Shown here in pieces: positions 612 to 61,236 of a DNA stretch of 64,000 nucleotides. The notes under the pieces are model-generated. The model made no database searches and had not been told where the DNA came from. It was given only the letters and a program-made list of their open reading frames with translations. Origin of the DNA: Flavobacteriales bacterium (GTDB lineage Bacteria > Bacteroidota > Bacteroidia > Flavobacteriales_D > Sanyastnellaceae); assembly GCA_016722445.1 (NCBI GenBank), contig JADKIZ010000017.1, positions 21,853 through 85,852 on the forward strand. Direction: 5' to 3'. Position numbers and translations under genes: made by a program. Position 1 is the stretch's first letter. Each line of letters starts with the position of its first letter.

Positions 612-3600
612 TTAGTTTGTAACGATGACCTTTTGATTTACAAGGCCATCAGCATTTTCACCACGGATAAAATAGAATCCGGTACTCAAACCTGTTATTT
701 CTGTTCTGAATAAATTGTATTCATTCAGTTCAAAAGTGCTTACCATTTGACCAACCTGATTGATTAAATAGAATTGACCTTTTGAAGGTGACTCAACCAT
801 GAAAGTACCAGTATTCGGATTAGGATAAATTTTCAAATTAACATCCACATCCATATTCTTGAGAATGGCTTCATCACCGCCCTCCGCAGCCATACATGTA
901 GTAACAGTCACCGACTTAGATCGGTTTGCAGAAGTACCGCATGCGTTCGTTGCTTTCACATACAACGTACCATTTACGCCACCCCAGTTCACCGTCAAAG
1001 AATCAGTTCCTTGTCCTGAAGCTATCGTAACGCTTGCAGGAACAGTCCATGTATAAGTTAAACCACTGATTTCAGTAGTAGAATATACCAATCCGGTCTG
1101 ACCACTGCACACAGGTGTAGGACCGACAATGGTTGCCGGCGTAGCTGGCTTACCATACAAGGTGAGGCATTTGTTTGTTCCATTACCACAAGCATTAGAT
1201 GCATAAACACATAGAGATCCGGAAATGAAGTTCGCAGGAACGTTGATCACAACGCTGTTACCATTATTGGTTACCATCGTGCAACCAGCAGGCAATGTCC
1301 ATGTATATCCTGTAGCTCCTGATACTGCACTCACGCTATAAGTGAAGTTACCACCAGCACAAAGGTTGGTAGACGTACCAGAGATCACGCCCGAAATATT
1401 CGGCACAGAATAAACATTGGTACTTCTGATGGCACCTGTTCCGCAATTGCTCACGCCTCGCACACTCACAACTCCACTTGTAAAGTTGGATGGGAAAGTC
1501 ACGTTGATGCTGTTCGTTCCTTGACCTGAATTGATCACTGCTCCTGATGGAACAGTCCACAAATAACTTGTAGCAGCAGTCATCGCTGCGATGCTATAAG
1601 TCTGGGTTGAACCCGAACAAACTCCAACCGTAGTTCCGGAGATGGTTCCAGGCGTGCCAGGAATACCATAAACAGACATATTGCGATTAGAACTTTGACC
1701 AAAACAATTCACAGATCTCACTGAAACTGTTCCTGATGTTGTGAAAGCAGCACCGAAAGCAATGGTGCAAGATGTTGTTCCCTGTCCACTCACAATGGAT
1801 GCATTCACTGGTGCAGTCCATGTGTATGACGCAGCATTAGTAACAGGAGAGATCGTGTAGGTCTGGGTTGTATTTGCACAAACATTAAAGCTTGGTCCTG
1901 AAATCATGCCCGGCATGGAAGGATTAGCCGTGAGTGCAATGACAGAGCGACAGAAAGAAACACTTTGACCGCAAGCATTCACTGCTTTGATGCAAAGATT
2001 ACCAGTCGCATAAGTAGCGCCAAAGCTTAAAGTAATCGAGTTTGTGGTTGAACTTCCAGTTGCTCCAGTTGGCAATGTCCACACATATGAAGTTGCACCA
2101 GCCACTGGATCAACATAGAAAACATTTCCTGTTGAATTTCTACAAACACCATTCGGTCCATAGATAAATGTTGGAGCTGCAGGGGCACTGCCACCATCAT
2201 TGCCAACAACCGCGTTTGCGTTTGCTGTGCAACCACCTGCTCCCGTTATGGTCACCGAATAATTACCAGCTTGCACATTGCTTAAATCCTCACTGGTGGC
2301 ACCATTGCTCCACAAATAAGTGAATGGGCCAGGATTATCTGATACAGTAAGATCAACACTTCCATTGCTTCCTCCAACACATGTTGCGTTAGTTGCTACT
2401 GCAGAGGCAGTCATGGTGCAACATCCTTCATCGACCGAAGTATCGCAGTCATCATCTATACCATTGCCACAAACTTCTGTAGCACCCGGATAAATGTTCT
2501 CATTGCCATCATTACAATCGGTGCTGTTGCCTACATAACCAATAGGCTGCGTGCAGCCAGTGCTGGTCGAGGCCAAATCACCAAATCCATCACCGTCTGT
2601 ATCTGCATACCAAGTAGATGTCGCAGAAACTGTGATGGATATTTGATTCGAATTAGCTGTTGAAGGACTTGCACAAGCGTCATTCGATGTCAATACACAA
2701 CTCACCACCTGACCATTGGTCAATGATGAAGTTGAATATGTATCGCTGTTGGTACCTACGTTAGAACCATCCACTTTCCATTGATAAGAAGGAGATGCGC
2801 CACCATTGGTTGGTGTTGCAGTGAAGGTCAATGATGAGCCAGCACAAGTTGGATTGCTTCCACTAGTCAATGCAATTGCAACAGATGGTGTTACTGATGT
2901 AGTAACGTTCATCGTGATATTGTTTGAGTTCGCAGTTGTCGGACTTGCACAAGATGCATTCGATGTCATTGTACAACTTACCACCTGACCATTGGTCAAT
3001 GATGAAGTTGAATATGTAGCGCTATTGGTACCAACGTTTGAACCATCCACTTTCCATTGATAAGAAGGAGATGCGCCACCATTGGTTGGTGTTGCAGTGA
3101 AGGTCAATGATGAACCTGTACAAGATGGATTGCTTCCACTAGTCAATGCAATTGCAACAGATGGTGTTACTGATGTAGTAACGTTCATCGTGATATTGTT
3201 TGAGTTCGCAGTTGTCGGACTTGCACAAGATGCATTCGATGTCATTGTACAACTTACCACCTGACCATTGGTCAATGATGAAGTTGAATATGTAGCGCTA
3301 TTGGTACCAACGTTTGAACCATCCACTTTCCATTGATAAGAAGGAGATGCGCCACCATTGGTTGGTGTTGCAGTGAAGGTCAATGAAGCCCCTGCACAAG
3401 TTGGATTACTTCCGCTTGTCAATGCAATTGCAACAGATGGTGTTACTGATGAAGTAACCGTCATCGTGATATTGTTTGAGTTCGCAGTTGTCGGACTCGC
3501 ACAAGATGCATTCGATGTCATTGTACAACTTACCACCTGTCCATTGATCAATGATGAAGTTGAATATGTAGCGCTATTGGTACCAACGTTTGAACCATCC

Positions 3601-6600
3601 ACTTTCCATTGATAAGAAGGAGATGCGCCACCATTGGTTGGTGTTGCAGTGAAGGTCAATGAAGCCCCTGCACAAGTTGGATTTGTTCCGCTTGTCAATG
3701 CAATTGACACAGATGGTGTTACTGAAGAAGTAACCGTCATCGTGATATTGTTCGAGTTCGCAGTTGTCGGACTTGCACAAGATGCATTCGATGTCATTGT
3801 ACAACTTACCACCTGACCATTGGTCAATGATGAAGTTGAATATGTAGCACTATTAGTACCAACGTTTGAACCATCCACTTTCCATTGATAAGAAGGAGAT
3901 GCGCCACCATTGGTTGGTGTTGCAGTGAAGGTCAATGAAGCTCCCGCACAAGTAGGATTGGTTCCGCTTGTCAATGCGATTGACACAGATGGTGTTACTG
4001 TTGAAGTAACAGTCATTGTGATATTGTTCGAGTTCGCAGTTATCGGACTTGCACAAGATGCATTCGATGTCATTGTACAACTTACCACCTGACCATTGGT
4101 CAACGATGAAGTAGTATATGTTGCACTGTTGGTGCCTACGTTCGAGCCATTCACTTTCCACTGATAAGATGGAGATGCACCACCATTGGTTGGTGTTGCC
4201 GTGAAGGTCAATGATGAACCTGTACAAGTTGGATTGGTTCCGCTTGTCAATGCGATTGACACAGATGGTGTTACTGAAGAAGTAACCGTCATCGTGATAT
4301 TGTTTGAGTTAGCAGTTGTTGGACTCGCACAAGCGGCATTCGATGTCATCGTACAACTCACCACCTGACCATTGGTCAATGATGAAGTAGTATATGTTGC
4401 ACTGTTGGTGCCTACGTTCGAGCCGTTCACTTTCCATTGATAAGATGGAGATGCGCCACCATTGGTTGGTGTTGCAGTGAAGGTCAATGAAGCTCCTGCA
4501 CAAGTTGGATTTGTTCCGCTTGTCAATGCAATTGACACTGATGGTGTTACTGTTGAAGTAACGTTCATCGTGATGTTGTTTGAGTTAGCAGTTGTTGGAC
4601 TTGCACAAGATGCATTCGATGTCATCGTACAACTCACCACCTGACCATTGGTCAATGATGAAGTAGTATATGTTGCACTGTTGGTGCCTACGTTCGAGCC
4701 GTTCACTTTCCATTGATAAGATGGAGATGCGCCACCATTGGTTGGAGTAGCAGTGAAAGTCAATGATGATCCCGCACAAGAAGGATTGTTTCCAGATGTG
4801 AGTGCTATGGATACTGCTGGAGTAACCGCATTATTGACTGTCATCGTAATACTGTTCGATGAAATCGTTGCTGTTCCTCCACCAATCGTAAAGGTGATGT
4901 TTGGTCTGTAAGAAACAGTTGTACCTGTCGCAACAGAACAAGCACCTGCACCAGCTACATCGTCTGCCTGATAATAAGTGCAAGCTACAAAAGAGCTTGC
5001 CGTTCTGTAAGTTTGATATGCTGCCGTACCGACAACTTGGTTAGAAAAACAAATATCAATGACGATATTGCTTGTTCCATCCCAGTTGAAAGGGGTTGTA
5101 AATACATGTGTATTCAATGTATTGAGCGCTGGTGTGTAGTTTGTTGGTCCATACACTGTTGTAAATGTTGGGGTTTGGAAGGTGGTTGTAGCGACAGTTG
5201 CGGTAGTATGCGCCATTTTCATGGTATAACCATTCAAAGTAGCTGGATCACCCGTTGTTCCTGCTACATCAAATCCCAAAGAAGAAATACTACCAGCAGC
5301 GAGACCGAGTGCTGTCAATTCCGATGCACGGATAATCCATTGTTGACGGCCATTACCGTAATATGTTGGATAAGCAGCTCCCTGAGCACTTGTTGTCGCA
5401 TTTGTGGTAGTACCTGTTCCGAGTTTGGCAATCGAAGGACAAGAACCCGCAGAGGTCAATTGACATAATACAACATCATTATTGGCCAATGCTGAAGTTG
5501 TGTAGGTGGTACTATTTGTTCCCACATTGCTACCATTCAATTTCCACTGATAAATCGGGGAAACGGCATTGGTCGTCGTAGCAGTGAATGTCGCGCTAAC
5601 TCCATTGCACATAGGATTCGTACCTGCTGTCTGTGCTACGCTAATGGTTGCTGAACCAGCAGAATTTACCGACATCGTGATGGCATTTGAGGTAGCAGTT
5701 GATGAAGTCACACATGCCACTGAAGAGGTCATGACACAAGTAACTATCTGTCCGTCGGTTAAAGTAGCAGAACTATAAGTCGGACTGTTGGTGCCAACAT
5801 TGGTTCCGTTCACTTTCCATTGATATGAAGGTGTTGCTCCACCATTAGTTGGTGTTGCAGTAAATACCACACCAATATTCGGACATGTTGGATTCGAACC
5901 TCCAGTAATGGCAATGGATACTGCTGGAGTAACCAAAGTTGTAGTTGACATGGTGATGGCATTTGACGTTGCTGGATTGTTGGTAACACCTGCCAGATTT
6001 GAGGTCATCACACAAGTCACAACTTGACCAGCAGTCAATGTTGAAGTTGAATATGTTGGACTGTTGGTTCCCACATTGGCTCCGTCAACTTTCCATTGAT
6101 AAGATGGAGATGAACCACCATTGACAGGAGTTGCGGTAAACACAGATGTTTCACCAGGACATTTTGGATTATTACCACTTGTTAGAGAAATAACGACACT
6201 GGCATCCGTGGTGCAGCTTTGGATTTGATACGAAAAGATATGCGTTCGGGCAGCACTGCCTCCACTTGTACCCCCCATGTATTCACTGGTACTCCAGAAA
6301 GTAATACCATCAGGATCGAGACAAGTGTGCGAGTAATCTCCAACCCTGTTTGTTCCTGTCTGATAACCAGTACCAGCCACCACCTGTACTTCCGTCAAAG
6401 GAAGTGTACCAAGTGGGTCACAAGTTCTTCTACCAGTATAATAGAGACCAGGATAAATAGAGGTTGCATCAGACTTGATATAACTCAAACCAATAGAACC
6501 GTTGTTATCCATTGCAATTGCACCCATCCAGCGTGTAGCTGCATCAGGTGTATAGATACCTTGCTGATAGACAGACCATGTTCCTGTTGATTGATTCTGG

Positions 6601-7808
6601 CGCATTTCGCACCACATAATGCTGCGTTGATTTGCATTGATCCTTACACCCCAATTCAATACAACAGTATTGTATCCACCCCAAATTTTATACTGGGCGC
6701 GGTACATCAAAACGCCGCCAATACCATCCAGCTTTTGGGTTGTTCCTGGTTGTGAACAGTCATTCCAACTTGCATTATATGATGCATCAAAAGAATCAGT
6801 TGGAATTGCACCAACAGAAGTAATTGTCGCAGTTGGTGTTGTTGGCACCCAGTTCACACTCATGTTATAAATATTGATGGCATCAGTGAAACCAGCTCCC
6901 CAACCATTGTCCGAATAAGAAAAGATTGGGCAAGGTGTACCTACTGCAGGCAGAGAGCCATCTGCGGCATCTCCAGGCAATGGACAAAAGAATCCACCAC
7001 CATCTGGTGGAGAGTAGTTGACATAATCAGATCTGGCAGAAGCAGATCCAGCAAGCATGGCATCACGTTCAAAACAAAACACCTTCTGGGTGGATTGATT
7101 TGATGTCATGTAATAACCATCCGACCATACTGAGAACTTCAAATAGTCTGGGAATTGTGGTGAGGTGAATGTATATGTATAGTATGAACCTGTAGGATCA
7201 GCTGATGTAGAAACGGCGATATAAATATTGTTGTTTCCTGAACCGAATTGCGCCAAAAACCAACGATTGGCCGCTTTGTCGTACATCACAATCGGGTCAC
7301 CTGCGTTTGCAGTTGCAGGACTCCAAAGGTTACCCAAAGTGGCCGTAAGCTGCACTGCTCCAGTTGTTTTATTGTAGACTTTAAATGTTGTGCTGTTGAT
7401 CATTTGCACATAGTGATTCGGACCAACGGCACCAGATGGGTCCATCGGACGAAATCCAGTGGCTGTTTGACCTGACCAACTCGCTTTCATTTCGCCAGAA
7501 GGCAATACCCCTTTGATTTTTTGCAGAAGCTTTTCGGAGTTTCCGTATTTCTCACCATGTTCTTCCACGGTGTAAGGAAACTTCTGAGGTGTGCGGTGAA
7601 GCCTATCACCACTTTCTTCACGCCCCTGACGTTTGATTTTGCGTTTCAAGAAAACTTCGTCCTCATTTACTGGATTTTCTTTGAAAATTTCTGAGATTGG
7701 ACGTGTTACATGAAATTCAGATGCAACAATAAAGTTGCTTTCATTGTTTTGTGAAAACGACACGATGGACAACATGACCATTGTGCACAACAGGTAAATT
7801 TTCCTCAT
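612..7808 (-). CDS. giant T9SS-secreted adhesin-like surface protein (type A CTD). From N to C: unknown ~600-aa domain, about 13 Ig-like ~92-aa repeats, a Cys/Asp-rich metal-binding-like motif, SprB-type repeats, then the Por sorting domain.
   Basis: Uninterrupted 2398-aa ORF with an N-terminal signal peptide ([20 protein letters not shown]). About 13 repeats contain '[33 protein letters not shown]'. 'DTDGDGFGD...[25 protein letters not shown]' is a metal-binding-like motif. '[51 protein letters not shown]' is SprB-repeat-like. The C-terminus '[17 protein letters not shown]...[19 protein letters not shown]' matches a T9SS type A sorting domain. Confidence 0.85.
2640..4860 (-). repeat. about 8 near-identical 276-bp tandem repeats inside the adhesin gene, each encoding one 92-aa Ig-like domain
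   Basis: Antisense 60-aa ORFs recur at an exact 276-nt period (2806, 3082, 3358, 3634, 3910, 4186, 4462) and differ by only 1-3 residues. The sense protein shows near-identical 92-aa units. Confidence 0.9.
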
Positions 7809-8178: not shown

Positions 8179-9747
8179 TTGTACTATCTTTGTTTCACTG
8201 AAAAACCAAAATTGAAGTCTTTCCTCAACACCATACTCATGGCGCTGTTTTTTTATAGCGTTTCATTCGGTCAGGCAAATTCGCCGCATACCGATGAGGA
8301 AATCAGTTTTCGCAATTTTATGGGAGGTGTTCGTTATGCCCACATTGTTGATTCTGAATACCGTAAGTATTACCGATCCGTAAAAGATGATGACCATGCA
8401 TTGGTCATTAAAGGAGTAGAAAATTTCCTCAAAAAGTATGGTTTTGAAGCTGTCACCGTCGGAGGAAAAGAAGACGCGCCTGATACATATCCTTCACTCT
8501 GCGAGTTGACCATTGTAACACCACAATGGGACAAGGAAAATGGTTTGATTGTGAATCTCCATTTATCATTTAGTTCATGTCAGGGCGATATCATTCAGGT
8601 GCCATGCCGGAAAAAAATTCCCATGTCAAAAACCATGGAAATTTCTGGCGACGTTGAACGAAGTCTTTTTCGCACTTTAGGTTATAGTAAGACTGAGTTT
8701 CATAACAGCAATAGTTTGAAGATCACACAACCTTCAACCGGTTTTAGCGAATCAAATCTGCGTGAAAAATTTCTTCAGGAAGGCACCGAAAACATTGAAG
8801 GTATTTATGAGTGTATGAAACCATCATCCACTGACCATAAATATCAGATTGGTATTGTCAGCACTGAAATAGGATATCAAATTATCTATTTGAATGGTGC
8901 AAAAAACCACCGCGATTGGAATCATGGAGAAATCAAAGGACAATTAACGCCAACCGCCAGCAACACAATCTATAAGTCCAGTTGGAAAACCGATTCAAAA
9001 GAAGAAGATATCTCCGACTATGTCAATTTCAAAGATGGACTGATGTCATTTGTGAATACCCCAGAACAACCGTGGATCAAGATTTTTCCGACATCCCACG
9101 ACATGAAATCTGAACCGCATTCGGGCATGCTAACTGGAACAGGCTTTGCCGTTTCATCGGATGGATTGATAGCGACAGCTTATCACGTCATCGAGAACCG
9201 CAAACAAATCATCGTGCGTGGTATCGATGGCGATTTAAACAAACGATACAATGCTACAGTGATCGCCACTGATAAAAAAAATGATCTGGCCATTTTACAA
9301 ATTGAGAACATCCACTTCGAAGAATTATCGGAGAATCCTTTGCAAATTAGTCATTCGACCACGGATTTAGGTTCAGACGTATTCGTGCTCAGCTATCCGC
9401 TCACGGGGAGCATGGGAGAAGACATCAAACTCACCACCGGCATTATCAATGCAAAATCAGGATTTCAAGGAGATCAGACGAATTATCAGATATCAGCTGC
9501 TGTACACCCAGGTAGCAGTGGTGGTCCGGTGTTCAGCGCCAATGGTGCATTGGTCGGAATCGTCAATTCAAGATATCAAGGAGCAGAAAGCGTAACATAT
9601 GCTTTGAAAAGCCAATACCTGGCTACACTTTTACAGAATTCAGGCTATTCAAGTTCAAACACAGAAAGCAAACTCAACACGAATCTCACTTTATCTGCTC
9701 AAGCCCGGAAAATGTTGCCTTTCGTTTTTATCATCGAAAGTCATTGA
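8179..9747 (+). CDS. secreted trypsin-like (S1, chymotrypsin-fold) serine protease with an uncharacterised ~300-aa N-terminal domain
   Basis: Catalytic triad context: 'TAYHVIEN' (His), 'KKNDLAILQIE' (Asp), 'HPGSSGGPVF' (Ser). The signal peptide starts at the internal Met (MALFFYSVSFGQ, about position 8239). No PDZ domain is evident. Confidence 0.8.
   Translation: MYYLCFTEKPKLKSFLNTILMALFFYSVSFGQANSPHTDEEISFRNFMGGVRYAHIVDSEYRKYYRSVKDDDHALVIKGVENFLKKYGFEAVTVGGKEDAPDTYPSLCELTIVTPQWDKENGLIVNLHLSFSSCQGDIIQVPCRKKIPMSKTMEISGDVERSLFRTLGYSKTEFHNSNSLKITQPSTGFSESNLREKFLQEGTENIEGIYECMKPSSTDHKYQIGIVSTEIGYQIIYLNGAKNHRDWNHGEIKGQLTPTASNTIYKSSWKTDSKEEDISDYVNFKDGLMSFVNTPEQPWIKIFPTSHDMKSEPHSGMLTGTGFAVSSDGLIATAYHVIENRKQIIVRGIDGDLNKRYNATVIATDKKNDLAILQIENIHFEELSENPLQISHSTTDLGSDVFVLSYPLTGSMGEDIKLTTGIINAKSGFQGDQTNYQISAAVHPGSSGGPVFSANGALVGIVNSRYQGAESVTYALKSQYLATLLQNSGYSSSNTESKLNTNLTLSAQARKMLPFVFIIESH
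8185..8192 (+). promoter_or_regulatory. candidate Bacteroidota -7 promoter element (TAnnTTTG) upstream of the protease gene
   Basis: tatctttg fits the TAnnTTTG consensus and lies about 50 nt upstream of the likely true start (MALFFYS...). No clean -33 TTG was found, so this is weak. Confidence 0.2.
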
Positions 9748-9879
9748 GGTTAAAACGCTTTCAGAATTCGTCGAAAAGATTCCGGCCCTTCATCTCACAA
9801 TTTACACTTATCAACAGGTATGAGTAGTTATCCCCAAAACATCAACATTCCTTGTCGTGTCGTTCGGTGAAAAATAGAT

Positions 9880-10068
9880 TTGTCGATTCCGGCAAAACCG
9901 GATTTTTCCTGTTTAACCTTATACACCCGAACGAAAGCAATGAACGCAGAATACTCAGCGGAAAAAATAATGGCAGACCTGAGCCAGAAAATGAAATCAG
10001 GAAGCGATGTTGAAGAAGTAAAACTCAAATACACGCTGATAGAAGAAGAAATTGCAGAAGAAGCCTAA
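9880..10068 (+). CDS. small acidic hypothetical protein (possibly starting at 9940, MNAEYSAEK...)
   Basis: The only support is a 62-aa ORF just upstream of the three-gene cluster. An overlapping minus-strand ORF also exists. Confidence 0.2.
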   Translation: MSIPAKPDFSCLTLYTRTKAMNAEYSAEKIMADLSQKMKSGSDVEEVKLKYTLIEEEIAEEA

Positions 10069-10105
10069 TGGTTTCCTTTGAATTTCAAAAGCAAAGAAGA
10101 AACAA

Positions 10106-10528
10106 ATGATCATAAAAGCAGAACCACGGACGATACTCAACTTCCTCCACACCTATTTTGATGTGATGCGGGATTTGTTTCAGTATCAGACCACAGACGG
10201 ATTGATCACCAAAGAAGTGTATGACATGCTCATACAGAAACACGGACATGTGATGAACATCCGTCTGCGCGAATTCAGGGTAATCAGAAGCATGGGAAGC
10301 GACTACGAAATGCGTGATGTCTATTACAGACTCATGGAATTCCTGTTGTTTGAGTTTAAACCTCTTCTGCCCGAAACCATTGAAAAGTATAAGTCGAGTA
10401 TTGGCGATCTTTATTTGAAGATCCGCAAATACGAGAATCAGAGATCGCGATATTCTTCAGGAAAGGATCAAGAACCTTTCGCATCAGGTGAGGGAATTTG
10501 TGGATTTGGTAGAGAGAAACACTTTTAG
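10106..10528 (+). CDS. hypothetical alpha-helical protein, probably the N-terminal part of the next ORF (frameshift)
   Basis: 140-aa ORF. The +1 frame is open from 10419, so a single indel between 10419 and 10528 would fuse it to the 272-aa ORF. The C-terminal 25 aa are low-complexity, as expected for an out-of-frame tail. Confidence 0.45.
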   Translation: MIIKAEPRTILNFLHTYFDVMRDLFQYQTTDGLITKEVYDMLIQKHGHVMNIRLREFRVIRSMGSDYEMRDVYYRLMEFLLFEFKPLLPETIEKYKSSIGDLYLKIRKYENQRSRYSSGKDQEPFASGEGICGFGREKHF

Positions 10529-11306
10529 GTTATTGGCAGAAACGCGTGATCTCAAGTCGAATCTCGAAAGAATTGACTATCGCGAAAAAGTTCACAAAGC
10601 GTCATTCTGGATCGAATATTATATTCTTCCTTTGAATCGCATTCTGGACGTAAAACACTCTGAATCGGTTACGAGCACCATCATCGATGTGAGTGAATAT
10701 GCCAACAGACGAAGGTTGGATTTTGAAGATGAAACCATCCGTGTTGAATTCGAAAAACTCTATACACAACTCATTCAGACCAATACCGATTTGTTGAGAC
10801 AGTCGAAAGTATTGGTGAATGAATTGCTTCCTCTTCTTGAGCGTATCCGCACTGAATCATTGATCCTGACCGGCTGGATCGAATTCCTGAGGAATCCATA
10901 TAAAATGGATACTCCTCCCCTGCTCAAGGGTTCACGCACCATGGTTTACGCCAAAGACATGCTGTTCAAAGTGCGCGAGTTCTTTGAGCAGTTTTCTACC
11001 AATGAAGTCATTACTTTGGAAGACAATGTGGTTGAATTCGACAAATGGATCTTCGACCGCAATCACTTCAAAGGCAAGCTGGAACAGAACATGCCGGTGA
11101 ACGACTTTTTTGGATGGTGCTACAAAGAGCTACAAAAGGATTTTACGGAAATCGATACCGATAAATTTTTCGCCTTGTGCGGACTTTTATTCGACAGTGA
11201 TTTGCTGATCGAATTCCCAAAAAAAGGTGAGCGTATCAACCTCACAACTACCACTTCCAAAATTTCATTGCCTAAACTCAAAGTTGAACCAGCGGTGAAA
11301 CTTTAA
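10488..11306 (+). CDS. hypothetical alpha-helical protein. The A+B fusion would be about 410 aa, a candidate kleisin-like (MukF/MksB/JetA-like) partner of the downstream MukE-like protein.
   Basis: 272-aa ORF with a GTG start that overlaps the previous ORF by 41 nt in the +1 frame. It is rich in E, K, L and F with predicted helices. No catalytic motifs were recognised. The kleisin assignment is inference only. Confidence 0.45.
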   Translation: MREFVDLVERNTFRLLAETRDLKSNLERIDYREKVHKASFWIEYYILPLNRILDVKHSESVTSTIIDVSEYANRRRLDFEDETIRVEFEKLYTQLIQTNTDLLRQSKVLVNELLPLLERIRTESLILTGWIEFLRNPYKMDTPPLLKGSRTMVYAKDMLFKVREFFEQFSTNEVITLEDNVVEFDKWIFDRNHFKGKLEQNMPVNDFFGWCYKELQKDFTEIDTDKFFALCGLLFDSDLLIEFPKKGERINLTTTTSKISLPKLKVEPAVKL

Positions 11307-11341
11307 TTCAGACATTATCAAACGATCAAAATCAGACAACG

Positions 11342-11878
11342 ATGGTATATCCTCCAAAACATAGAACAATTGTAGAAGAACTCATGAATGGAAAATTCAT
11401 TCTCAGCAATGAAGAAACATTCACCATTCTGAAAGAGAATGACAAATTCTATCAGGAATTTTTCAAGCTGTCGTTCGATTTGGAATTGTATCTCAAAGCA
11501 GACTACGCTTTTCTATTGAGCAAGGATACACAGGAGAATTTCTCCCGCGACGTGAGCATTTTCATTGCAGTGTTGAGTTATGAATTGGATAAAGATGGTC
11601 GCAATTTCATGGAAGCCCTTGAGTTCAATGAATTCACTTTCGAGGAAATCGATCGCTATTTCGATAACTCATCATTCATTGATTTGATCGAAAGCAATAA
11701 ATCTCTCCGCGAGCCAGATGCACGCCGCACACTCATCAATGGTATGCACAGAAGAAATATCGTCAATAAAAATTTCGACGATCGTTTTTCATTCACACAA
11801 GCACACCGGGTATTCGTTGATTTCGCCAAAGAACTCGCATTGAAGCGGATGGCGCACGACGGAGTACACGCGAATTGA
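11342..11878 (+). CDS. hypothetical protein with MukE/MksE/JetB-like (KITE, DUF4194-like) features
   Basis: 178-aa ORF. The segment 'FYQEFFKLSFDLELYLKADYAFLLSKDTQ' parallels the E. coli MukE N-terminal winged-helix region '...[27 protein letters not shown]' as I remember it. The size fits a KITE protein. Confidence 0.4.
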   Translation: MVYPPKHRTIVEELMNGKFILSNEETFTILKENDKFYQEFFKLSFDLELYLKADYAFLLSKDTQENFSRDVSIFIAVLSYELDKDGRNFMEALEFNEFTFEEIDRYFDNSSFIDLIESNKSLREPDARRTLINGMHRRNIVNKNFDDRFSFTQAHRVFVDFAKELALKRMAHDGVHAN

Positions 11879-11910
11879 ATTATGAATTATGAAGTATGAA
11901 TTATGAATTT
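11877..11910. repeat. short arm of 5 heptamer repeats (GAATTAT/GAAGTAT), inverted relative to the long array downstream; it overlaps the stop codon of the MukE-like gene
   Basis: gaattatgaattatgaagtatgaattatgaatt is the reverse complement of the unit in the 12056-12236 array. Confidence 0.8.
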
Positions 11911-12055
11911 TGGCGGAGGCTTGGTTGAGATCGAATGTGAATTTGTGAAACCTTAAAAATCTTGGGAACATCTAATATTTATAATTTAAAATTTAAAATT
12001 TAAGATTATACGCGAAATGAAGTCTATAAGCCATCTTAGTGCTTTGTTCTGCATA

Positions 12056-12236
12056 GTTCATAATTCATAATTCATAATTCATAATTCATAATTCATAATT
12101 CATAATTCATAATTCATAATTCATAATTCATACTTCATAATTCATAATTCATAATTCATAATTCATACTTCATAATTCATAATTCATAATTCATAATTCA
12201 TAATTCATACTTCATAATTCATAATTCAAAAAGCTG
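12056..12236. repeat. tandem array of about 26 copies of the heptamer TTCATAA (with the variant TTCATAC every 5-6 units), sitting between convergent genes
   Basis: Directly visible as cataattcataattc repeated. Every reading frame hits a stop within 21 nt, so it is non-coding. A 150-nt spacer containing (aatttaa)x3 separates it from the inverted short arm. Confidence 0.9.
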
Positions 12237-12255: not shown

Positions 12256-13010
12256 TCAAAGCGCACTAAGGCGTTCATTGACCTCCTGCTTTTTCCTTCT
12301 TGAAATCTCGAATTCTTGTCCACCCTTGAGGGTTAAGGTGAAGGGTTCCTTTTTGCTGTAGTGCGTGACACAGTTGACGTTGACAACACAACTTTTGTTG
12401 ATTCTCAAAAAGAGCTTAAAATCTTCCAGCACCTCTTCCAATTCTTTCAATATCCTTGATGTGATGATTTTTCGCCATTCTGTAAATGAATGATAGCGTA
12501 GTTCACGTCTGATTCCATGAAAGCGATTTCTCCGATTCGAATAAACCTCACCTTGCCTTTGTCGTGTATAGCCAACGATTTTTCCAACTCCACTTCTTTT
12601 GCATTGTTGAGTAAATGCACCACCTGCGATGTCTGGTTTTCCGATTTGATCATCGTTGATTTTGCCCGGTGCACCGCAGAGACAAGCTCTTCCACTTCAA
12701 CCGGTTTCAACAAATAATCCAACGCACTGAATTTGATCGCGCGAATGGCATACTGATCAAAACTGGTGACGAAGATGATTTTGAAATCAATGGTGCTAAA
12801 TTTATTCAGCATACCAAACGCATTACCTTGTGGCATCTGAATATCCAGAAAAACCAAATCAGGTTTAAGTTGATGAATCAATTCGTAACCATCGTGAGCA
12901 TTTCCGGCTTCGCCGACAATTTCCACTTCAGGACAAAACCTGGTGAGCAATTTTCGAAGAACATCCCTATTGGAAGGTTCGTCATCGATGAGCATGGTCC
13001 TGATCAACAT
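12256..13010 (-). CDS. LytTR-family response regulator (REC + LytTR), split by an apparent frameshift at about 12447-12450
   Basis: N-terminal REC motifs 'MLIDDEP...LVFLDIQMP...'. LytTR is split across two ORFs: '...VRFIRIGEIAFMESDVNYAIIHLQNGEKSSHQGY*' then '(L)KELEEVLEDFKLFLRINKSCVVNVNCV'. Confidence 0.75.
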
Positions 13011-13011
13011 A

Positions 13012-16000
13012 TTACAATTCTATGGTTATTCTCACATTGGTACCAGCAGCGCTTTCCTGATCGAACAAATCAGTAATGACCACATTAAAAGTTGTCTGAT
13101 TCATTTTTTTCAATGCATCAATTTTTTCGCTTACCAGCGACATCCCCATGGATATTTTGATATCACCCTCATGTAGTTCAGCAGATTTCTTGCGTCCTAC
13201 GCCATTGTCCGTGATATCGATGCACAAGGTATCGTCCATCATCACACAAGAGATTTTTAGGATTCCCCTTCTTTGATCCAACAGCGGCATCAAACCATGC
13301 CAAATCGCATTCTCCACATAAGGTTGCAAAATCATTGTGGGTATGCGGAGATCGAGGTTTTCCGAAACTGATTCATCCATTTCAAGCACAAATTCAAAAG
13401 AATTCCTGAAACGCAGTTGTTCCAATGAGATATAAAGTTTCAGCCAATCAATTTCCTTCTCCAGGCTAATTTCATTTTCCCGTGAATTATTCAACACCAT
13501 TCTGATCAGCTTCGCAAACTTCGAGAGATAATCATATGCCTGCTGTGTTTCATTGTTCAACACAAAATCCTGAATAGAGTTGATCGAGTTGAAAATAAAA
13601 TGCGGATTCATTTGCGCGCGAAGTGCAGTAATACGACTTTCTGCAATAAGCATTTCAATTTCACTCTTCTCTTTCAGTTTCCTGTTGTAGTGCGCTACAC
13701 GGGCACGGATGATGAGATAAATAAACAACAACAATAACAATGACATGAGAAGAATAAACCACCATTTCACCCAAAATGGTGCTTTAATATCAAAACTGAA
13801 ATACAGTTTAGACGAATGTACTTTTCCAGTTTGATCGACATCAGCAAGATACAAATCATAATGTCCATGCGGTAATCTTTTGAATTCAACCACATCATTG
13901 GAAGTCAATTGCATGGTGGAATCATATCCGACAAGCTGATAAGCATATCTTTCAGAGAACAATTCATGAAATGAAATCGCCGCGACTTGAAACACGATGT
14001 TGTTGTCAGTATAAGAAAGTGATTGACCCGTCTGGTAAGGATTACCATTCACCAAGATGTTTTCCAGAATAATTTTTCTATTCATTTGATTTCCGTCAAA
14101 CTTCATCAAATCGACCAATTCCAAGCCATCTCTGGTTACAACATAAAGCGTATTTCCTCTTTTGCAACAACCATTTGTTTCGTTACTATTCAGTCCATTT
14201 GAGCGGTTCAAAACACCAATGACCGATAAATCACCTTCGGTAAAGTAATTGATACCTTGTTTGGTTGAGATCCACACACGACGTTGATCATCAACATGGA
14301 CATCCGAACAGAAATCTGAACTCAGGCCATTTTCAGAGGAAAGTCTCGTGAATTCATTGTTTCGATAAATGAAAACACCAGCACTTTTTGTGGTGATGTA
14401 AATAGATCCCGATTCACTTTCAAGCATAGAAGTAATAACTTGTCCACCCAAAACCTCTGGAAATATTTCTTTGATTTCATTGTTTCGAAATGCATACAAA
14501 CCATTTCGGGTACCAACCCATACCTCGTCCCTGCGTTGAATATACAGTAGGCAAGTGCCACGAACCTGCATGTTCACGATTTCTATCCACTTCAAATTTT
14601 CTATCCGATATAATTTGTTATAGGATAAACCGACAAGTCCAAATTTTGGATCATACGCCATATCATTGGTAGATACAGGTACATTTTTCCAATTGTCGCC
14701 GATGTATGTTGTCAAACGCAGTGAAACAGGATCCAATTCACCACCCGTAGAACCACAGTAATAAATGCGGTTGTTGCAACTTCTGATCCTTAAGTCACCA
14801 ACGTTATTGATACTTGCCAACGGCAGACTTTTTCTGACGTTATTGAATTGATCCAAAACATACACATGATGATCATTGGTTGCGATGTAGACCATGGAAT
14901 CAATCACTGTAATATCCTGCACGGCCTCATCCAGACCAGGGTAATTTTGATAACTGACATTGTGGAGATAAGGAATATAATAAACTCCATTTTGAAGACT
15001 GCTCATCCAAATTCCGCCTTCAAAATCTTCTGTGATTGAACCGATCGTTTCACCTAAGAATAACATTTGAGGAATTGCGCTCAGTCTGCCATTTTGAAGC
15101 AAGGCAACACCATTTCCATTTGAAAGGCTCACCAGCAGATTACCTTCCCTATCTTCAAAAACCGTCAGGATGGTGGCCGCGAATTCCCTTACAAAACTGA
15201 ATTTTCCATTATTGAATTCATACAATGAATTGAGAAAAGAAAACAGGACTCGACCATCGCGGAGTTTTACCGAAGACATCCTCGAGTTGACGCCCTCAAC
15301 CAAAGAAAACTGATCCGATCATTGAATACACGATCACCTTCTATGACGCCAACGTCCATCATTCCTCGTTTATCCTGCGTCTGAATTTTAAACGGAGTAG
15401 CATCGGTAATGGAAGCAACTGATTTTCCATTGTTCAGTGAATAAATAGCTGCATAGATGTTGGTGTTAAAATTTCGAATGGAAAACTGTGTATATCCGGA
15501 TTCAGCAAAAACCACATAAGGATTGTAAGAAGTCCCTATGTGAATGTCGCCGTTGGTATCTATTTTGAACGAGACAATAGATGCGGCATCCTGTCTGATC
15601 TGAGCCGCCAGTGCATTGGATACCGGAAGTTTTTCCACCTGATCATTCGTGATTCTGCCAACCATACCATCTGAAGCCACGAAGAATACGTTGTTCTGCG
15701 CATCGATATCAATACAAATGATGCTGTTTGCAGTGACATTTTTCGCTGTGAAAAAATTGCGGAAATTCCGCCCATCAAACCGGCTGATACCTTGGTCACC
15801 AGCCATCCATACATATCCGTTTTGATCATTGATCACAAAATAACTGGCAGAACCGGGAAGACCGTCATTCACTCCAAGGTTTCTATACACCGGATGTTGC
15901 CCCCAACAGCATACACCGAAGAGGATTGTAATTAAAACGATCAACAGCCTGGTCCACATACTTTGCAATAATAAAACAGCATAGAGGCTCAGAAACGACC

Positions 16001-16086: not shown

Positions 16087-16912
16087 ATGAGAAAAAACCT
16101 TAACACCTTCCTTTGCACTTTGCTAATCGTCATTCCAGTATTCGTATCCGCTCAGAAATCAACCCAGGCCTCGAAAAAGCGGAACGAAGACAACTACATC
16201 TGTGATTAAGCCTGCTACCGTTAAACCTGCTGCGGTCAAACCAACTGTAAATACTTCAGTCAGAAATACAGAGATCAGGAAAACATCGCCTGTTACCACT
16301 GTACACAGTCATCCGGCATCTAGCGCGGTTTCCAAACCCATTGAGTCAAGGAAATCAAACCGGCGGACATCAAACCAATTACACCAATAGCCGAGCAGCC
16401 CCATGCCGAGCCAGCGATGCAAGGTCCTGTTTTTTCACCGGAGAAACCGACTTCCGGCACGATTTCGGGTCCACCATGTACCATCAATAAAGAGGCCCTG
16501 ATTTGGCAATCCTATATTCAATATCGTTATCAAAATTGTAGAAGAGCCCGTTCAGAAAATCGTCATTGTGGTTGTGGCGCCGACATCCAGTTGGTGAATC
16601 CAACCGACGAGTCTCTAGACATATACATCAAATATGTTTCTTCAGTGCATTGCCAACGTTGAGAATACTGCAATGCCAGAAAGGAAGTGGATTCAATATC
16701 CGACATTCGTGATAGCTCCCGGAGAAACCATAACGATTAGAGGAACTTGCAATGGCGGAATCCTCTATGAAGTGACTTCACATTATGATAAATCCATGGG
16801 CAAGAAGAACAGTTCTGTGGCGTATACGAATCCTGCTTTCATTGATCATGGTTTTATTCGCAACAATTGTATCAATAAGACCGTGGTATTCGAGAATGAG
16901 AACAATGAATGA
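16087..16912 (+). pseudogene. fragments of a secreted protein gene spread over alternating frames (frameshifts or decay)
   Basis: A signal peptide MRKNLNTFLCTLLIVIPVFVSAQ (frame 1) is followed by a Pro/Thr/Lys-rich linker KPATVKPAAVKPTV (frame 2), then frame 1 (16417-16662), then frame 2 (16634-16912) carrying globular-looking sequence. All pieces are on the same strand and contiguous. Confidence 0.35.
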
Positions 16913-17814: not shown

Positions 17815-18696
17815 GTGCAGATAACTTCGCGGCGATTCAAAACTGAATACATGCAATCGACCGAAGAACTCAAAAAAATTGCGTCACAGGTAAGACGCGA
17901 CATTGTGCGGATGGTACATGCCGTGAATAGCGGTCATCCTGGTGGATCATTGGGGTGCACTGATTATTTTGTGGCACTTTACTTCCGTGTAATGAATGTG
18001 AATTTGTCCTCCTGGAATATGGATGGAAAAGGTGAAGACCTGTTCTTTCTGAGCAATGGCCACATCTCTCCGGTGTGGTACAGTGTATTGTCGAGAAAAG
18101 GATATTTCCCCGTGAGTGAATTATCTACATTCCGCAAAATCAACACCAGATTACAAGGGCATCCAACCACACACGAAGGACTTCCGGGAATTCGCGTGGC
18201 GAGTGGGTCACTTGGGCAAGGTTTATCCGTTGCGATAGGAGCTGCATTGGCTAAAAAGCTGAACAACGATAAATCGACTGTTTTCACATTGCACGGAGAT
18301 GGTGAAATTCAAGAAGGACAGATTTGGGAAGCTGCGATGTATGCGGCACACAATAAAGTCGACAACCTCATTTCCGCCATTGATGTGAATGGACAACAAA
18401 TCGATGGTCCTACCAGCAAAGTATTGAGTCTTGGAAACCTTCGCGCAAAATGGGAAGCTTTTGGTTGGCTCGTTTTGGAGATGAATGGAAATGACATGGA
18501 CGAAGTCGTAAAAACTTTAGAACATGCAAAAACACTCACAGGCAAAGGTCAACCCATCATGATTTTGATGAAAACCGAGATGGGAAAAGGCGTAGATTTT
18601 ATGGAGGGTACCCACAAATGGCATGGCGTTGCGCCGAATGATGCCGAGCTTGAAAAGGCACTCTCACAATTGGAAATGACCTTAGGAGACTATTAA
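17815..18696 (+). CDS. tkt: transketolase, N-terminal (TPP-binding) subunit
   Basis: 'NSGHPGGSLGCTDYFVALYF' and 'HGDGEIQEGQIWEAAMYAAHNK' match the transketolase N-terminal domain. The likely true start is at MQSTEEL (about 17851). This is a split-gene arrangement with the next ORF. Confidence 0.85.
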   Translation: MQITSRRFKTEYMQSTEELKKIASQVRRDIVRMVHAVNSGHPGGSLGCTDYFVALYFRVMNVNLSSWNMDGKGEDLFFLSNGHISPVWYSVLSRKGYFPVSELSTFRKINTRLQGHPTTHEGLPGIRVASGSLGQGLSVAIGAALAKKLNNDKSTVFTLHGDGEIQEGQIWEAAMYAAHNKVDNLISAIDVNGQQIDGPTSKVLSLGNLRAKWEAFGWLVLEMNGNDMDEVVKTLEHAKTLTGKGQPIMILMKTEMGKGVDFMEGTHKWHGVAPNDAELEKALSQLEMTLGDY

Positions 18697-18711
18697 GACA
18701 AACAGAAGATT

Positions 18712-19674
18712 ATGCTCAATTTCGAAATCAAATCATCCAACGATACCCGTTCCGGTTTCGGTGACGGCCTTTCAGAACTCGGAAGAACCAATCCACGTGT
18801 GGTGGCTTTATGCGCAGACCTTGTAGGTTCTTTGAAAATGGATACATTCATCAAAGAAAACCCTGATCGCTTCTTTCAGATCGGAATAGCTGAAGCGAAT
18901 ATGATGGGCATCGCTGCCGGCCTCACCATTGGCGGATATATTCCCTTCACTGGAACATTTGCGAATTTTTCTACAGGAAGGGTTTATGATCAAATTCGTC
19001 AGAGTATCGCATACAGTGACAAGAATGTCAAGATATGTGCTTCACACGCCGGTCTCACGCTTGGAGAAGATGGTGCGACACACCAGATTTTAGAAGATGT
19101 TGGTATGATGGCCATGTTGCCCAATATGACCGTGATCAATCCATGCGATTACAATCAAACGAAAGCCGCAACCATTGCAATTGCAGCGCATCATGGACCT
19201 GTTTATCTCCGTTTTGGTAGGCCGAAGGTACCGGTTTTCACTGCACCAGACCACAAATTCGAAATCGGCAAAGCTTGGCATATACATCAAGGAAGTGATG
19301 TCACCATCATAGCCACTGGGCATCTTGTATGGAAATCCATAGAAGCTGCTCTGATTCTTGAATCTGAAGGTATCACGGTAGACCTCATCAACATACACAC
19401 CATCAAACCGCTCGATGTCAAAGCGATTGTAGATTCTGTCGCAAAAACTGGAGCAGTGGTCACCGCAGAAGAACATCAGATTACAGGAGGATTGGGAAGT
19501 ATGGTTGCACAAGTGATTGCAACGCATCAACCTGCACCTATCGAATTTGTTGGCGTTCAGGATTCATTCGGCGAAAGCGGAACACCTGATCAGTTGATGA
19601 AAAAATACGGTCTTGAGAAGGAGAACATCGTAGCTGCTGCCAAAAAAGTGGTTGCCCGGAAAGTCATGGCTTGA
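18712..19674 (+). CDS. tkt: transketolase, C-terminal (pyrimidine-binding + C-terminal domain) subunit
   Basis: '[14 protein letters not shown]' and 'RFGRP' motifs. It lies directly downstream of the N-terminal subunit on the same strand. Confidence 0.85.
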
Positions 19675-57135: not shown

Positions 57136-57205
57136 AGTGGTGCGAAGTAAAAGCAGTTTTACAGCTCGTTCAAAACATTCCCAACAGGATGTGAATGATT
57201 AGATG

Positions 57206-57907: not shown

Positions 57908-58083
57908 AACAATAGGCGACTTGAAAGGTCGAAAATAAGAGTGGAATTCGAAATTACTACTCGAGGGCTAAATCTTCATTTATAAAAAAAACCAAGGAAA
58001 TCGAATCGGAAAGTGTAAAAAGAAAATAAACATCCATTGATTACTTGCTTGCTGAAAACTCTCCAGAATGACAGGCAACGTTT

Positions 58084-60816: not shown

Positions 60817-60901
60817 CCCAGATCAATTTTTTGATACTCCAATAGTAGAATCGTGGCTTCAAACAAGAATCCGCAATTGAATTCTGAGTTAAATTCGCGG
60901 T

Positions 60902-61236
60902 ATGACCAAAAAAATCTTACTTCCCATCTTGGTAGCTGGATTGGCTACACTGGCAGCATGTTCAGCTAAAAAAGCAACCGCAACTGCCGCTGCAATCACA
61001 CAAGCTGATGCTGATAAAGCAGCCATCAACTTCCCGGGCGCTACCCTTGCTTCATTGAATGAAGGAAAAATGCATTATGAAAACAATTGCGGCAAATGTC
61101 ACGCTCTGTTCCAACTACAGAATTCAGTACTGAAAAATGGCATAAAGTTGTTCCTCCCATGGCCGAAAAAGCTGAAGTAGATAAGAATGTAGAAGATCTT
61201 ATTTTGCAGTACGTGGCTACTATGGCAAAACCTTGA
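60902..61236 (+). CDS. small lipoprotein c-type cytochrome (single CxxCH), with its C-terminal third in another frame
   Basis: Lipobox 'LAACS' and heme motif 'NCGKCHAL'. The +1 frame continues '...KWHKVVPPMAEKAEVDKNVEDLILQYVATMAKP*'. Confidence 0.5.

What the first reader, a model, noticed from the sequence alone, without database searches (positions are those of the whole stretch)
10106..11878. Orphan MukE/JetB-like (KITE) gene with a candidate kleisin-like partner, no SMC ATPase present
Three co-directional uncharacterized alpha-helical ORFs of 140, 272 and 178 aa lie downstream of a secreted protease. The last carries a segment ('FYQEFFKLSFDLELYLKADYAFLLSK') that parallels the MukE/MksE N-terminal winged-helix region ('[25 protein letters not shown]' in E. 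coli MukE, from memory). The first two ORFs overlap by 41 nt in a +1 relationship, and the second frame is open from 10419. A single indel would therefore give one ~410-aa protein, the size of MukF/MksB/JetA kleisin-like partners. Mks/Wadjet systems always include an SMC-like ATPase (MksF/JetC) and usually JetD. Here the array ends after the KITE-like gene and is replaced by a heptamer repeat tract. This could be a degenerate Wadjet/Mks relic, or a new minimal two-component module that uses a host SMC. Either way it is worth a look.
Basis: partly seen in the sequence, partly recalled or inferred. Interest (0 to 1): 0.7.

Follow-up and report, generated by a model that had tools for sequence, protein, structure and literature searches.

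The report
Split-off kleisin and KITE condensin genes
These genes encode the two accessory subunits (plus a tiny unannotated protein) of a divergent MukBEF/MksBEF-type DNA-organising SMC complex in a Flavobacteriales genome; the motor ATPase is not lost but sits elsewhere in the same genome, and the apparent gene split is one extra base, most likely an assembly error.

Summary

- **KITE subunit:** the 178-aa protein is an MksE/MukE-type KITE subunit. It scores 65 bits against Pfam PF21980 (cutoff 27), and its model's top 16 PDB matches are all MukE.
- **"Orphan" is wrong:** in 19 of 27 ATPase-seeded loci, an 885–895-aa SMC-like ATPase lies upstream of these genes. The window's own genome carries an intact copy (IPP69_17545) on another contig.
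- **"Relic" is unsupported:** dN/dS is 0.01–0.04, and three neighbouring genes carry similar frameshifts, which points to assembly error.
- **Fourth gene:** a conserved acidic microprotein gene (window 9940–10068) always precedes the kleisin gene.
- **No nuclease:** no JetD/MksG nuclease is linked, no defence HMM hits these proteins, and the neighbours are housekeeping genes. A chromosomal condensin role is more likely than Wadjet-type defence.

The system differs from described Mks/Muk systems in four ways: ATPase-first gene order, a short ATPase, the microprotein, and an unannotated kleisin and ATPase. Interest is moderate.

The parts
9875..9882 (+). TAGATTTG, a match to the Bacteroidota-type -7 promoter consensus TAnnTTTG, 58 nt upstream of the microprotein start. 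It is a candidate promoter for the three-gene unit. Evidence is weak.
   Evidence: One search found 29 matches in the window, which is not enriched over shuffles, so the site is only suggestive. A terminator-like hairpin at 9888-9902 lies next to it. That the consensus marks promoters rests on my own knowledge of Bacteroidetes promoters.
9940..10068 (+). Unannotated 42-aa acidic microprotein gene (MNAEYSAEKIMADLSQKMKSGSDVEEVKLKYTLIEEEIAEEA). It is the conserved fourth gene of the module.
   Evidence: A 36-48-aa ORF lies directly upstream of the kleisin gene in 23 of the 24 loci examined; L022 has only a weaker match. The motif E-V-[KR]-[LMV]-K-[YF]-x-L matches 21 of 22 loci tested; L012 has T in the first position. 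Its invariant residues use 2-6 synonymous codons, which indicates constraint at the protein level. dN/dS is 0.12 against the sister genome. The ORF stays with the kleisin gene when the ATPase is unlinked.
10106..11306 (+). MukF/MksF-type kleisin gene. It is 399 aa once one extra base is removed, and reads here as ORF A (10106-10528) plus ORF B (10488-11306).
10440..10442 (+). Site of the single-base insertion (CAG-A-GAT against CAGGAT) that causes the apparent A/B split.
   Evidence: DNA alignment with five intact orthologues shows one gap column, at window position 10442, and no other indel in 1200 nt.
11342..11878 (+). mksE: a KITE subunit with tandem winged-helix domains, 178 aa.
   Evidence: Pfam PF21980 MksE, E=1.2e-17, 65.2 bits against a cutoff of 27, covering profile positions 2-161 of 163. 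The AF2 model has pLDDT 89.6 and pTM 0.81. The top 16 Foldseek PDB hits are MukE (E=1e-6 to 1e-4, TM about 0.6), followed by a Wadjet-II chain and the Nse1-Nse3 entries. dN/dS is 0.013-0.018.

Best explanation
Window 9940-11878 encodes three co-transcribed components of a divergent, Bacteroidota-type MukBEF/MksBEF-like SMC complex:
- a 42-aa acidic microprotein;
- a 399-aa MukF-type kleisin;
- an MksE KITE subunit.

The ancestral and still predominant arrangement is a four-gene operon: SMC-like ATPase (885-895 aa), microprotein, kleisin, MksE. In this sublineage the operon has been split. The ATPase gene now stands alone at another chromosomal locus (IPP69_17545 in this genome) and supplies the motor in trans.

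Inferred mechanism, by analogy with MukBEF and MksBEF: the ATPase dimerises through a small hinge. The kleisin bridges the ATPase heads with its N-terminal helical domain and C-terminal winged helix. MksE dimers bind the kleisin's central linker. The ATP-driven ring then entraps and loop-extrudes DNA.

No nuclease is linked and the genes sit among vertically inherited housekeeping genes. The likely role is therefore chromosome organisation or segregation, not plasmid destruction.

The A/B split is a one-base insertion. It is most likely an assembly indel error, or at most a very recent mutation.

Shown: subunit identities and folds, operon structure in relatives, presence of the ATPase in the same MAG, purifying selection, and the coding nature of the microprotein gene.

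Inferred: physical assembly, loop extrusion, the condensin role, and the function of the microprotein.
For: **MksE identity:**

**Kleisin identity and single-gene status:**

**Operon in relatives:** searches show the four-gene cluster. In one search, 19 of 27 ATPase-seeded species-representative loci have the kleisin gene downstream of the ATPase, and all but the truncated L014 also have MksE.

**ATPase nature:**
- It has Walker A (GPNNVGKST), a signature-like motif (SDGTD) and Walker B (LFIDE). These are invariant across 26 members.
- The central part gives coiled-coil matches.
- All 26 members hit AAA_29. Five of 26 hit DUF3584 at up to 1.2e-15, and one hits MukB_N.
- Weak hits go to SMC, ASRP, Rad50, MukB and NCBIfam NF040859.

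**ATPase in the same genome:** P0364 (MBL0317466.1, IPP69_17545) is 895 aa with intact motifs. The sister MAG shows the same split on two contigs. The ATPase stands alone in three further assemblies.

**Not a pseudogene:**
- dN/dS is 0.009-0.039 at saturated dS.
- The gene is intact in the sister MAG at 95-99% amino-acid identity.
- Four adjacent genes are all frame-split in this window.

**Housekeeping context:**
- Neighbours include transketolase, ribosomal protein S1 and PNPase.
- There are no plasmid or phage homologues.
- PADLOC gives no hits for the window's three ORFs or the MksE protein, and only weak sub-threshold hits for relatives' ATPase and kleisin.

**Microprotein:**
Against: - No sequence-level link connects the kleisin to MukF, JetA or ScpA, even with a 43-member profile.
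- The ATPase reaches no curated family threshold, and its structure was not modelled.
- The same-genome claim rests on MAG binning. It is corroborated by an independent sister MAG.
- The frameshift cannot be proven an artefact without reads.
- The absence of a nuclease was assessed only within about 10 kb of the genes.
- I could not check whether the genome also has Smc-ScpAB.
Confidence: 0.78

Rival explanations
1. Degenerate relic: after the operon was split, the kleisin gene was inactivated by a real frameshift, and the pair is decaying in this genome.
For: The frameshift is in the sequence, and the ATPase is no longer linked.
Against: - There is only one lesion in 1200 nt.
- Both halves show dN/dS of 0.009-0.046/saturated against relatives.
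- The sister MAG has the same split layout with an intact 399-aa gene.
- The window genome's ATPase is full length with all motifs.
- Three neighbouring unrelated genes (response regulator, histidine kinase and a 278-aa protein) carry the same kind of frameshift. That pattern points to consensus indel errors.
Confidence: 0.1
2. Wadjet/MksBEFG-type anti-plasmid defence, with the nuclease subunit encoded elsewhere or not yet recognised.
For: The KITE and kleisin folds also match chains from Wadjet JetABC structures (9qe0_D, 9qxt_E). Some ATPase family members hit DUF3584, which PADLOC's JetC1 model describes as MukB-like. Operon splitting shows that components can act in trans.
Against: - No JetD/MksG-like gene appears in about 35 loci.
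- No PADLOC JetA or JetB model hits, and JetC reaches only E=0.09.
- The neighbours are housekeeping genes.
- The three proteins diverge in parallel across loci, which fits vertical inheritance.
- There are no copies on plasmids or phages.
Confidence: 0.1
3. Autonomous two-component kleisin-KITE module that works with the host's canonical Smc, or without any ATPase.
For: In this lineage the pair plus microprotein is transcriptionally separate from any ATPase.
Against: A dedicated ATPase that travels with the pair in most genomes is retained intact in the same MAG and in the sister MAG. MukF-type kleisins are not known to pair with canonical Smc; that is established knowledge of SMC-kleisin specificity.
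Confidence: 0.02

Closest known systems
MukBEF (E. coli MukB-MukF-MukE)
   Same: It has the same three-part SMC-like ATPase, kleisin and KITE architecture. The closest solved folds are MukE for the 178-aa protein and MukF for the 399-aa protein. The kleisin gene lies directly upstream of the KITE gene.
   Different: - There is no detectable sequence similarity to MukF or MukE in PDB profile searches.
- The ATPase is 885-895 aa, against 1486 aa for MukB (my knowledge), which implies much shorter arms.
- Gene order is ATPase first, then microprotein, kleisin and KITE, instead of mukF-mukE-mukB.
- A conserved microprotein gene is added.
- The host is Bacteroidota, not a gammaproteobacterium.
MksBEF / MksBEFG / Wadjet JetABCD (P. 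aeruginosa, C. glutamicum, E. coli JetABCD)
   Same: The KITE subunit belongs to the Pfam family named MksE, and NCBI annotates orthologues as 'condensin complex protein MksE'. The ATPase family shows weak links to DUF3584, AAA_29 and NCBIfam NF040859.
   Different: - Described mks operons have the order mksFEB(G), and C. glutamicum MksB is 1111 aa (PMC10123090). Here the ATPase comes first and is about 20% shorter.
- No MksG/JetD nuclease is linked.
- PADLOC Jet models do not recognise any subunit at significance.
- The kleisin and ATPase have no Pfam or NCBIfam family.
- There is an extra microprotein.
- In this lineage the operon is split.
Smc-ScpAB
   Same: It has the same general SMC, kleisin and KITE logic. 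Some ATPase family members hit SMC_prok models weakly.
   Different: ScpB appears only at rank 49 (E=0.32) for the KITE model. The kleisin has the MukF-type N-terminal winged helix plus helical bundle, not the ScpA layout.

Membership tests
MksE/MukE KITE proteins (Pfam PF21980) | Scores above the curated gathering threshold over the full profile | tested here: met
   65.2 bits against a cutoff of 27, E=1.2e-17, profile positions 2-161 of 163. All 120 listed homologues carry PF21980.
MksE/MukE KITE proteins (Pfam PF21980) | Tandem winged-helix fold like MukE | tested here: met
   AF2 model with pLDDT 89.6 and pTM 0.81. The top 16 Foldseek PDB hits are MukE chains, TM 0.54-0.63, probability 1.00. 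A Wadjet-II chain and the Nse1-Nse3 entries follow.
MksE/MukE KITE proteins (Pfam PF21980) | Encoded next to its kleisin, and binds the kleisin linker as a dimer | tested here: inconclusive
   Adjacency is met in the window and in 27 of the 28 loci that hold both genes; L028 has a 3.3-kb gap. Binding and dimerisation cannot be tested with these tools.
MukF/MksF/JetA-type kleisins | Sequence membership in a curated kleisin family (MukF, DUF3375/JetA, ScpA) | tested here: not met
   No such hit was found for the fused window protein, for P0124, or for any of 43 diverse members. A profile search against PDB sequences found only coiled-coil noise. PADLOC gave no JetA hit.
MukF/MksF/JetA-type kleisins | N-terminal winged helix and helical domain, flexible central linker, C-terminal winged helix | tested here: met
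MukF/MksF/JetA-type kleisins | Bridges the neck and cap of the SMC ATPase heads | not testable with these tools
   No multimer prediction or biochemistry was available.
MukB/MksB/JetC SMC-like ATPases (partner subunit) | Present with the kleisin and KITE genes | tested here: not met
   It is absent from the 64-kb window. It is present in the same MAG on another contig (IPP69_17545) and lies upstream in 19 of 27 ATPase-seeded loci.
MukB/MksB/JetC SMC-like ATPases (partner subunit) | Split ABC-type head (Walker A at the N-terminus; signature and Walker B at the C-terminus) separated by long coiled coils and a hinge | tested here: inconclusive
   The motifs are invariant in 26 members, and the central 440-640 region matches coiled coils. 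All 26 hit AAA_29, 5 of 26 hit DUF3584 and 1 hits MukB_N. All hits to curated SMC, MukB and Mks models fall far below their cutoffs. No structure was modelled.
Wadjet (JetABCD) / MksBEFG defence systems | Toprim nuclease subunit JetD/MksG in the operon | tested here: not met
   No such gene lies next to the module in any fetched locus. Regions beyond about 10 kb were not examined.
Wadjet (JetABCD) / MksBEFG defence systems | Recognition by the PADLOC JetA, JetB and JetC models | tested here: not met
   There were no hits for the window's ORFs A, B and C. JetC1 reached only E=0.09 for the relatives' ATPase, and there was no JetA hit for the kleisin.

The most novel reading that the evidence does not exclude
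The four-gene module (short SMC-like ATPase of about 890 aa, acidic microprotein, MukF-fold kleisin, MksE) may be a distinct Bacteroidota-restricted lineage of MukBEF-type complexes. In this reading the 36-48-aa microprotein is a true fourth subunit or regulator. The complex would tolerate having its motor encoded in trans, and would act as a compact chromosomal condensin with roughly half-length arms.
Probability: 0.3. Interest if true: 0.6.

Novelty: new variant of a known kind. Interest (0 to 1): 0.38.

Why it matters
**Annotation.** Three of the four genes of a conserved SMC-type system in Flavobacteriales and other Bacteroidota go unrecognised by Pfam, NCBIfam and PADLOC. These are the ATPase, the kleisin and the microprotein. 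Only MksE is named, so genomes appear to carry an orphan KITE gene. Linking the parts corrects that.

**SMC biology.** The system offers a naturally compact MukBEF-like complex. Its ATPase is about 20% shorter than C. glutamicum MksB and about 40% shorter than MukB. It has ATPase-first gene order, an extra conserved microprotein, and lineages where the motor gene is unlinked. Such a system could be used to ask how arm length and accessory factors affect loop extrusion.

**This window.** The main lesson is cautionary. The orphan status and the split gene reflect operon rearrangement plus a probable assembly indel, not a new minimal system.

Tried and rejected
**Searches that found nothing**
- PADLOC gave no hits for A, B or C, and only weak P-loop (AriA) and JetC1 (E=0.09) hits for the relatives' ATPase.
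- NCBIfam found nothing for the fused kleisin or MksE.
- Searches of PDB sequences found nothing relevant. This covers MksE alone, the ATPase alone, and profiles of the kleisin, MksE and ATPase families.
- Pfam on 43 kleisin family members gave only scattered coiled-coil noise.
- Plasmid and phage collections held no homologues of the kleisin. The plasmid collection also held none of MksE.

**Look-ups that failed**
- Exact-sequence look-ups of the window's MksE (P0001) and the window genome's ATPase (P0364) were not on record. The ATPase context therefore came from the 97%-identical P0243.
- The founding MksBEF paper (PMC3179180) is not held.
- No paper mentions MksBEF together with Flavobacteria.

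**Ideas considered and rejected**
- Programmed frameshifting at 10442: all relatives lack the extra base.
- The trypsin-like protease as part of the system: it is a neighbour only in this sublineage, is 64% identical where the kleisin and MksE are 95-99%, and its PADLOC hits cover only the generic protease domain.
- The heptamer tract as a remnant of a deleted ATPase gene: the ATPase lies upstream in this family, and the sister genome has a 43-bp intergenic region there.
- The ATPase lying just off the window's end: L011 synteny with window 55.7-61.2 kb stops at 61234. The fmt/TonB/ATPase block has no match in the window.
Full report
**1. Observation**

The three co-directional ORFs exist as described: A is 10106-10528 (140 aa), B is 10488-11306 (272 aa) and C is 11342-11878 (178 aa). 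A and B overlap by 41 nt in a +1 relationship. Frame B is open from 10419, just after a stop codon.

The upstream gene, 8179-9747, is a trypsin-like serine protease (Trypsin_2, E=1.2e-25). Downstream lie two heptamer arrays. The window is about 40-45% GC. Its gene content shows it is a Bacteroidota chromosome: T9SS cargo proteins, a LytTR two-component system, transketolase, ribosomal protein S1 and PNPase. The exact MksE sequence is recorded as IPP69_14075 of a Flavobacteriales MAG, on an 85,852-bp contig.

**2. ORF C is an MksE/MukE-type KITE protein**

ORF C scores 65.2 bits against Pfam PF21980 'MksE' (cutoff 27, E=1.2e-17) over almost the whole profile. The Pfam family might have been built from these same Bacteroidota proteins, so I also tested the fold independently.

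An AlphaFold2 model built on 28 homologues has pLDDT 89.6 and pTM 0.81, with two winged-helix modules. Its top 16 Foldseek matches in the PDB are all MukE chains (E=1e-6 to 1e-4, TM about 0.6). A Wadjet-II JetABC chain and the eukaryotic Nse1-Nse3 entries follow, and ScpB ranks far lower.

PADLOC's Jet models and NCBIfam do not recognise the protein. A family profile finds no PDB sequence either. The relationship to MukE and JetB is detectable only by fold and through PF21980.

**3. A+B is one kleisin gene broken by one base**

A fused A+B query finds more than 800 homologues. The best are single 398-399-aa proteins at 76-92% identity and 100% coverage. A DNA alignment with five intact orthologues shows exactly one gap column. 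The window reads CAG-A-GAT at about 10442 where the others read CAGGAT, and there is no other indel in 1200 nt.

The family is narrow, with 98 representatives at 50% clustering among 1.84 billion proteins. It matches no Pfam, NCBIfam, PADLOC or PDB sequence, even as a 43-member profile.

The AF2 model (pLDDT 87.6) has the following layout:
- an N-terminal winged helix at 6-68;
- long helices at 88-261;
- a low-confidence linker at 262-316;
- a C-terminal winged helix at 317-394.

**4. The pair is not orphan**

Relatives carry a conserved four-gene cluster:
- an 885-886-aa protein;
- a 37-48-aa ORF;
- the 399-aa kleisin;
- MksE.

The large protein has Walker A (GPNNVGKST) at its N-terminus. A signature-like motif (SDGTD) and Walker B (LFIDE) lie near its C-terminus. 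All are invariant in 26 members. Its central region matches only coiled-coil proteins. All 26 members give sub-threshold AAA_29 and AAA_21 hits. Five hit DUF3584, the domain that PADLOC's JetC1 model describes as MukB-like, at up to 1.2e-15. One hits the MukB N-terminal domain. NCBIfam gives weak hits to SMC, ASRP, Rad50, MukB and NF040859. I conclude that it is an SMC-like ATPase outside every curated family.

Linkage among 27 species-representative loci seeded with the ATPase:
- 19 have the kleisin gene downstream of the ATPase, and all but the truncated L014 also have MksE. Three of the 19 have gaps of 0.7-3.3 kb.
- One (L020) clearly lacks the kleisin and MksE within 10 kb.
- In three (L011, L019, L021) the contig ends 0.4-1.3 kb after the ATPase.
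- In four (L023, L032, L034, L036) the ATPase itself is cut by the contig end.

One locus (L009) has a 2813-aa adhesin gene inserted between the ATPase and the small ORF.

The window has no ATPase. However, the 90%-identity cluster of the closest ATPases contains MBL0317466.1, IPP69_17545. It is 895 aa, comes from the same MAG as the window, and sits on a 47-kb contig. It is full length with all motifs and 97% identical to its cluster representative.

The sister MAG, GCA_019694805.1, shows the same split. The protease, small ORF, intact kleisin and MksE are on contig 61, and the ATPase is on contig 40. In three further assemblies the 895-aa ATPase stands alone between opposite-strand genes. 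A third MAG (VIK71) also has distant locus tags for the two genes. The operon has therefore truly been split in this sublineage, and all parts are retained.

**5. Not a decaying relic**

Against the sister genome and a more distant relative, dN/dS values are as follows:
- the ORF A part of the kleisin: 0.009 and 0.039;
- the whole kleisin: 0.012 against the sister genome;
- mksE: 0.013 and 0.018.

Synonymous sites are saturated in these comparisons.

The neighbouring LytTR response regulator, histidine kinase and a 278-aa protein are each also split between two frames, relative to intact sister orthologues. Four frameshifts in four consecutive genes within about 7 kb point to consensus indel errors in the assembly, not targeted decay. 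Read-level confirmation is still needed.

**6. A fourth gene**

A 36-48-aa ORF immediately precedes the kleisin gene in 23 of the 24 loci examined; L022 has only a weaker match. The window copy is at 9940-10068. The N-terminus varies, but a core motif, E-V-[KR]-[LMV]-K-[YF]-x-L, is conserved. Its invariant Val, Lys and Leu residues are encoded by 4, 2 and 6 different codons across loci. That shows selection on the peptide and not on the DNA. The product is strongly acidic.

The ORF stays with the kleisin gene when the ATPase is separated. This suggests a functional tie to the kleisin and KITE side of the complex. Its role is unknown. A regulatory or structural fourth subunit is my inference.

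**7. Function**

No JetD/MksG-type nuclease gene accompanies the module in any locus. Defence-system HMMs do not recognise the window's three ORFs or the MksE protein, and the relatives' ATPase and kleisin give only weak sub-threshold hits. Neighbours are housekeeping genes that differ between lineages. The three proteins diverge in parallel across loci. No plasmid or phage carries the kleisin, and no plasmid carries MksE.

By analogy with MukBEF and MksBEF, I infer an ATP-driven DNA-entrapping, loop-extruding complex that acts on the chromosome. In those systems the kleisin and KITE subunits stimulate the SMC-like ATPase (PMC10123090). A Wadjet-like defence role with an unlinked nuclease is not excluded; I put it at about 0.1.

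**8. Comparison with known systems**

Described mks operons have the order mksF-mksE-mksB(-mksG), and C. glutamicum MksB is 1111 aa (PMC10123090). This module differs in several ways:
- The ATPase comes first.
- The ATPase is about 890 aa, which implies shorter arms. This is inferred from length alone.
- It has an added microprotein.
- It lacks a nuclease.
- Two of its three large subunits are unrecognised by current family libraries.

I found no paper describing MksBEF in Flavobacteria. The only two papers that mention both MksBEF and Bacteroidota are a metagenomic survey of divergent protein families, which mentions the two terms in separate contexts, and a review of plasmid mobility that I did not open. 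I class the module as a new variant of a known kind.

NCBIfam NF040859 is labelled 'MksF' but has a 926-position profile that matched the P-loop N-terminus of an ATPase family member. That may be the source of the confusion.

**9. Verdict**

The orphan, relic and minimal-module readings are not supported. The window's peculiarities come from a lineage-specific operon split plus a probable assembly indel. The remaining interest lies in the uncharacterised compact Bacteroidota MukBEF-like module and its microprotein.

Noticed in passing
window 11876-11909 and 12052-12228: There are two heptamer microsatellites in inverted orientation: (TGAATTA)x4.9, overlapping the mksE stop codon, and (CATAATT)x25.3. 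They can pair into a stem of about 35 bp (MFE -79 kcal/mol, z=-5.3) between the convergent mksE and LytTR regulator genes. The repeat occurs nowhere else in the window. The sister genome has only a 43-bp intergenic region there. Its function is unknown; a terminator role, or slippage-prone contingency DNA, are possibilities.
   Followed up: partly
window 12259-13010, 13018-15902, 16087-16903: The LytTR response regulator, the histidine kinase and a 278-aa protein are each split between two reading frames, relative to intact orthologues in the sister MAG. With the kleisin gene, that makes four frameshifted genes in a row. This suggests a raised indel error rate in this assembly.
   Followed up: partly
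window 612-7808 (- strand): A 2398-aa secreted adhesin-like protein has about a dozen near-identical repeats of roughly 95 aa (motif ...SPSYQWKV[DN]GSNVGTNS...) and a C-terminal T9SS-type sorting region. Such repeat genes seem to sit at rearrangement and insertion points around the mks module. An example is the 2813-aa PKD/CHU_C gene inserted between the ATPase and the small ORF in L009.
   Followed up: no
window 55724-61234; L011 1-5465: The 5.5 kb upstream of the ATPase locus in the sister MAG is syntenic (73% nt identity) with the far end of the window. Synteny stops at 61234. The fmt / TonB-receptor-like / ATPase block that follows in L011 and L037 is absent from the window. In other relatives, transketolase genes sit directly upstream of the ATPase. 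In the window they lie downstream of mksE, at 17815-19674. Together these indicate local rearrangement.
   Followed up: partly
NCBIfam NF040859 against P0304 (ATPase family member): This NCBIfam model is labelled 'Mks condensin complex protein MksF' but has a 926-position profile. It matched the Walker-A N-terminus of an ATPase (E=1.8e-12). In the published nomenclature MksF is the kleisin and MksB is the ATPase.
   Followed up: no
window 8179-9747: The trypsin-like protease upstream matches PADLOC models (RT-Protease_XI, LmuA, Avs1b) only through its generic protease domain. It is 64% identical to the sister orthologue, against 95-99% for the kleisin and MksE. It neighbours the module only in this sublineage and is probably unrelated to it.
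   Followed up: partly
window 9888-9902: A terminator-like hairpin (TCCGGCAAAACCGGA followed by a T-run) lies between the protease gene and the microprotein gene. It sits immediately after a TAnnTTTG promoter-like element at 9875-9882. This fits a transcriptional boundary there.
   Followed up: no
L028 12862-17844; L026 10427-11623; L030 2253-2994: Some relatives have extra DNA inside the module: 3.3 kb between the kleisin and MksE genes in L028, and 1.2 kb and 0.7 kb between the ATPase and kleisin genes in L026 and L030. The module tolerates interruption, which fits the full split seen in the window's lineage.
   Followed up: no
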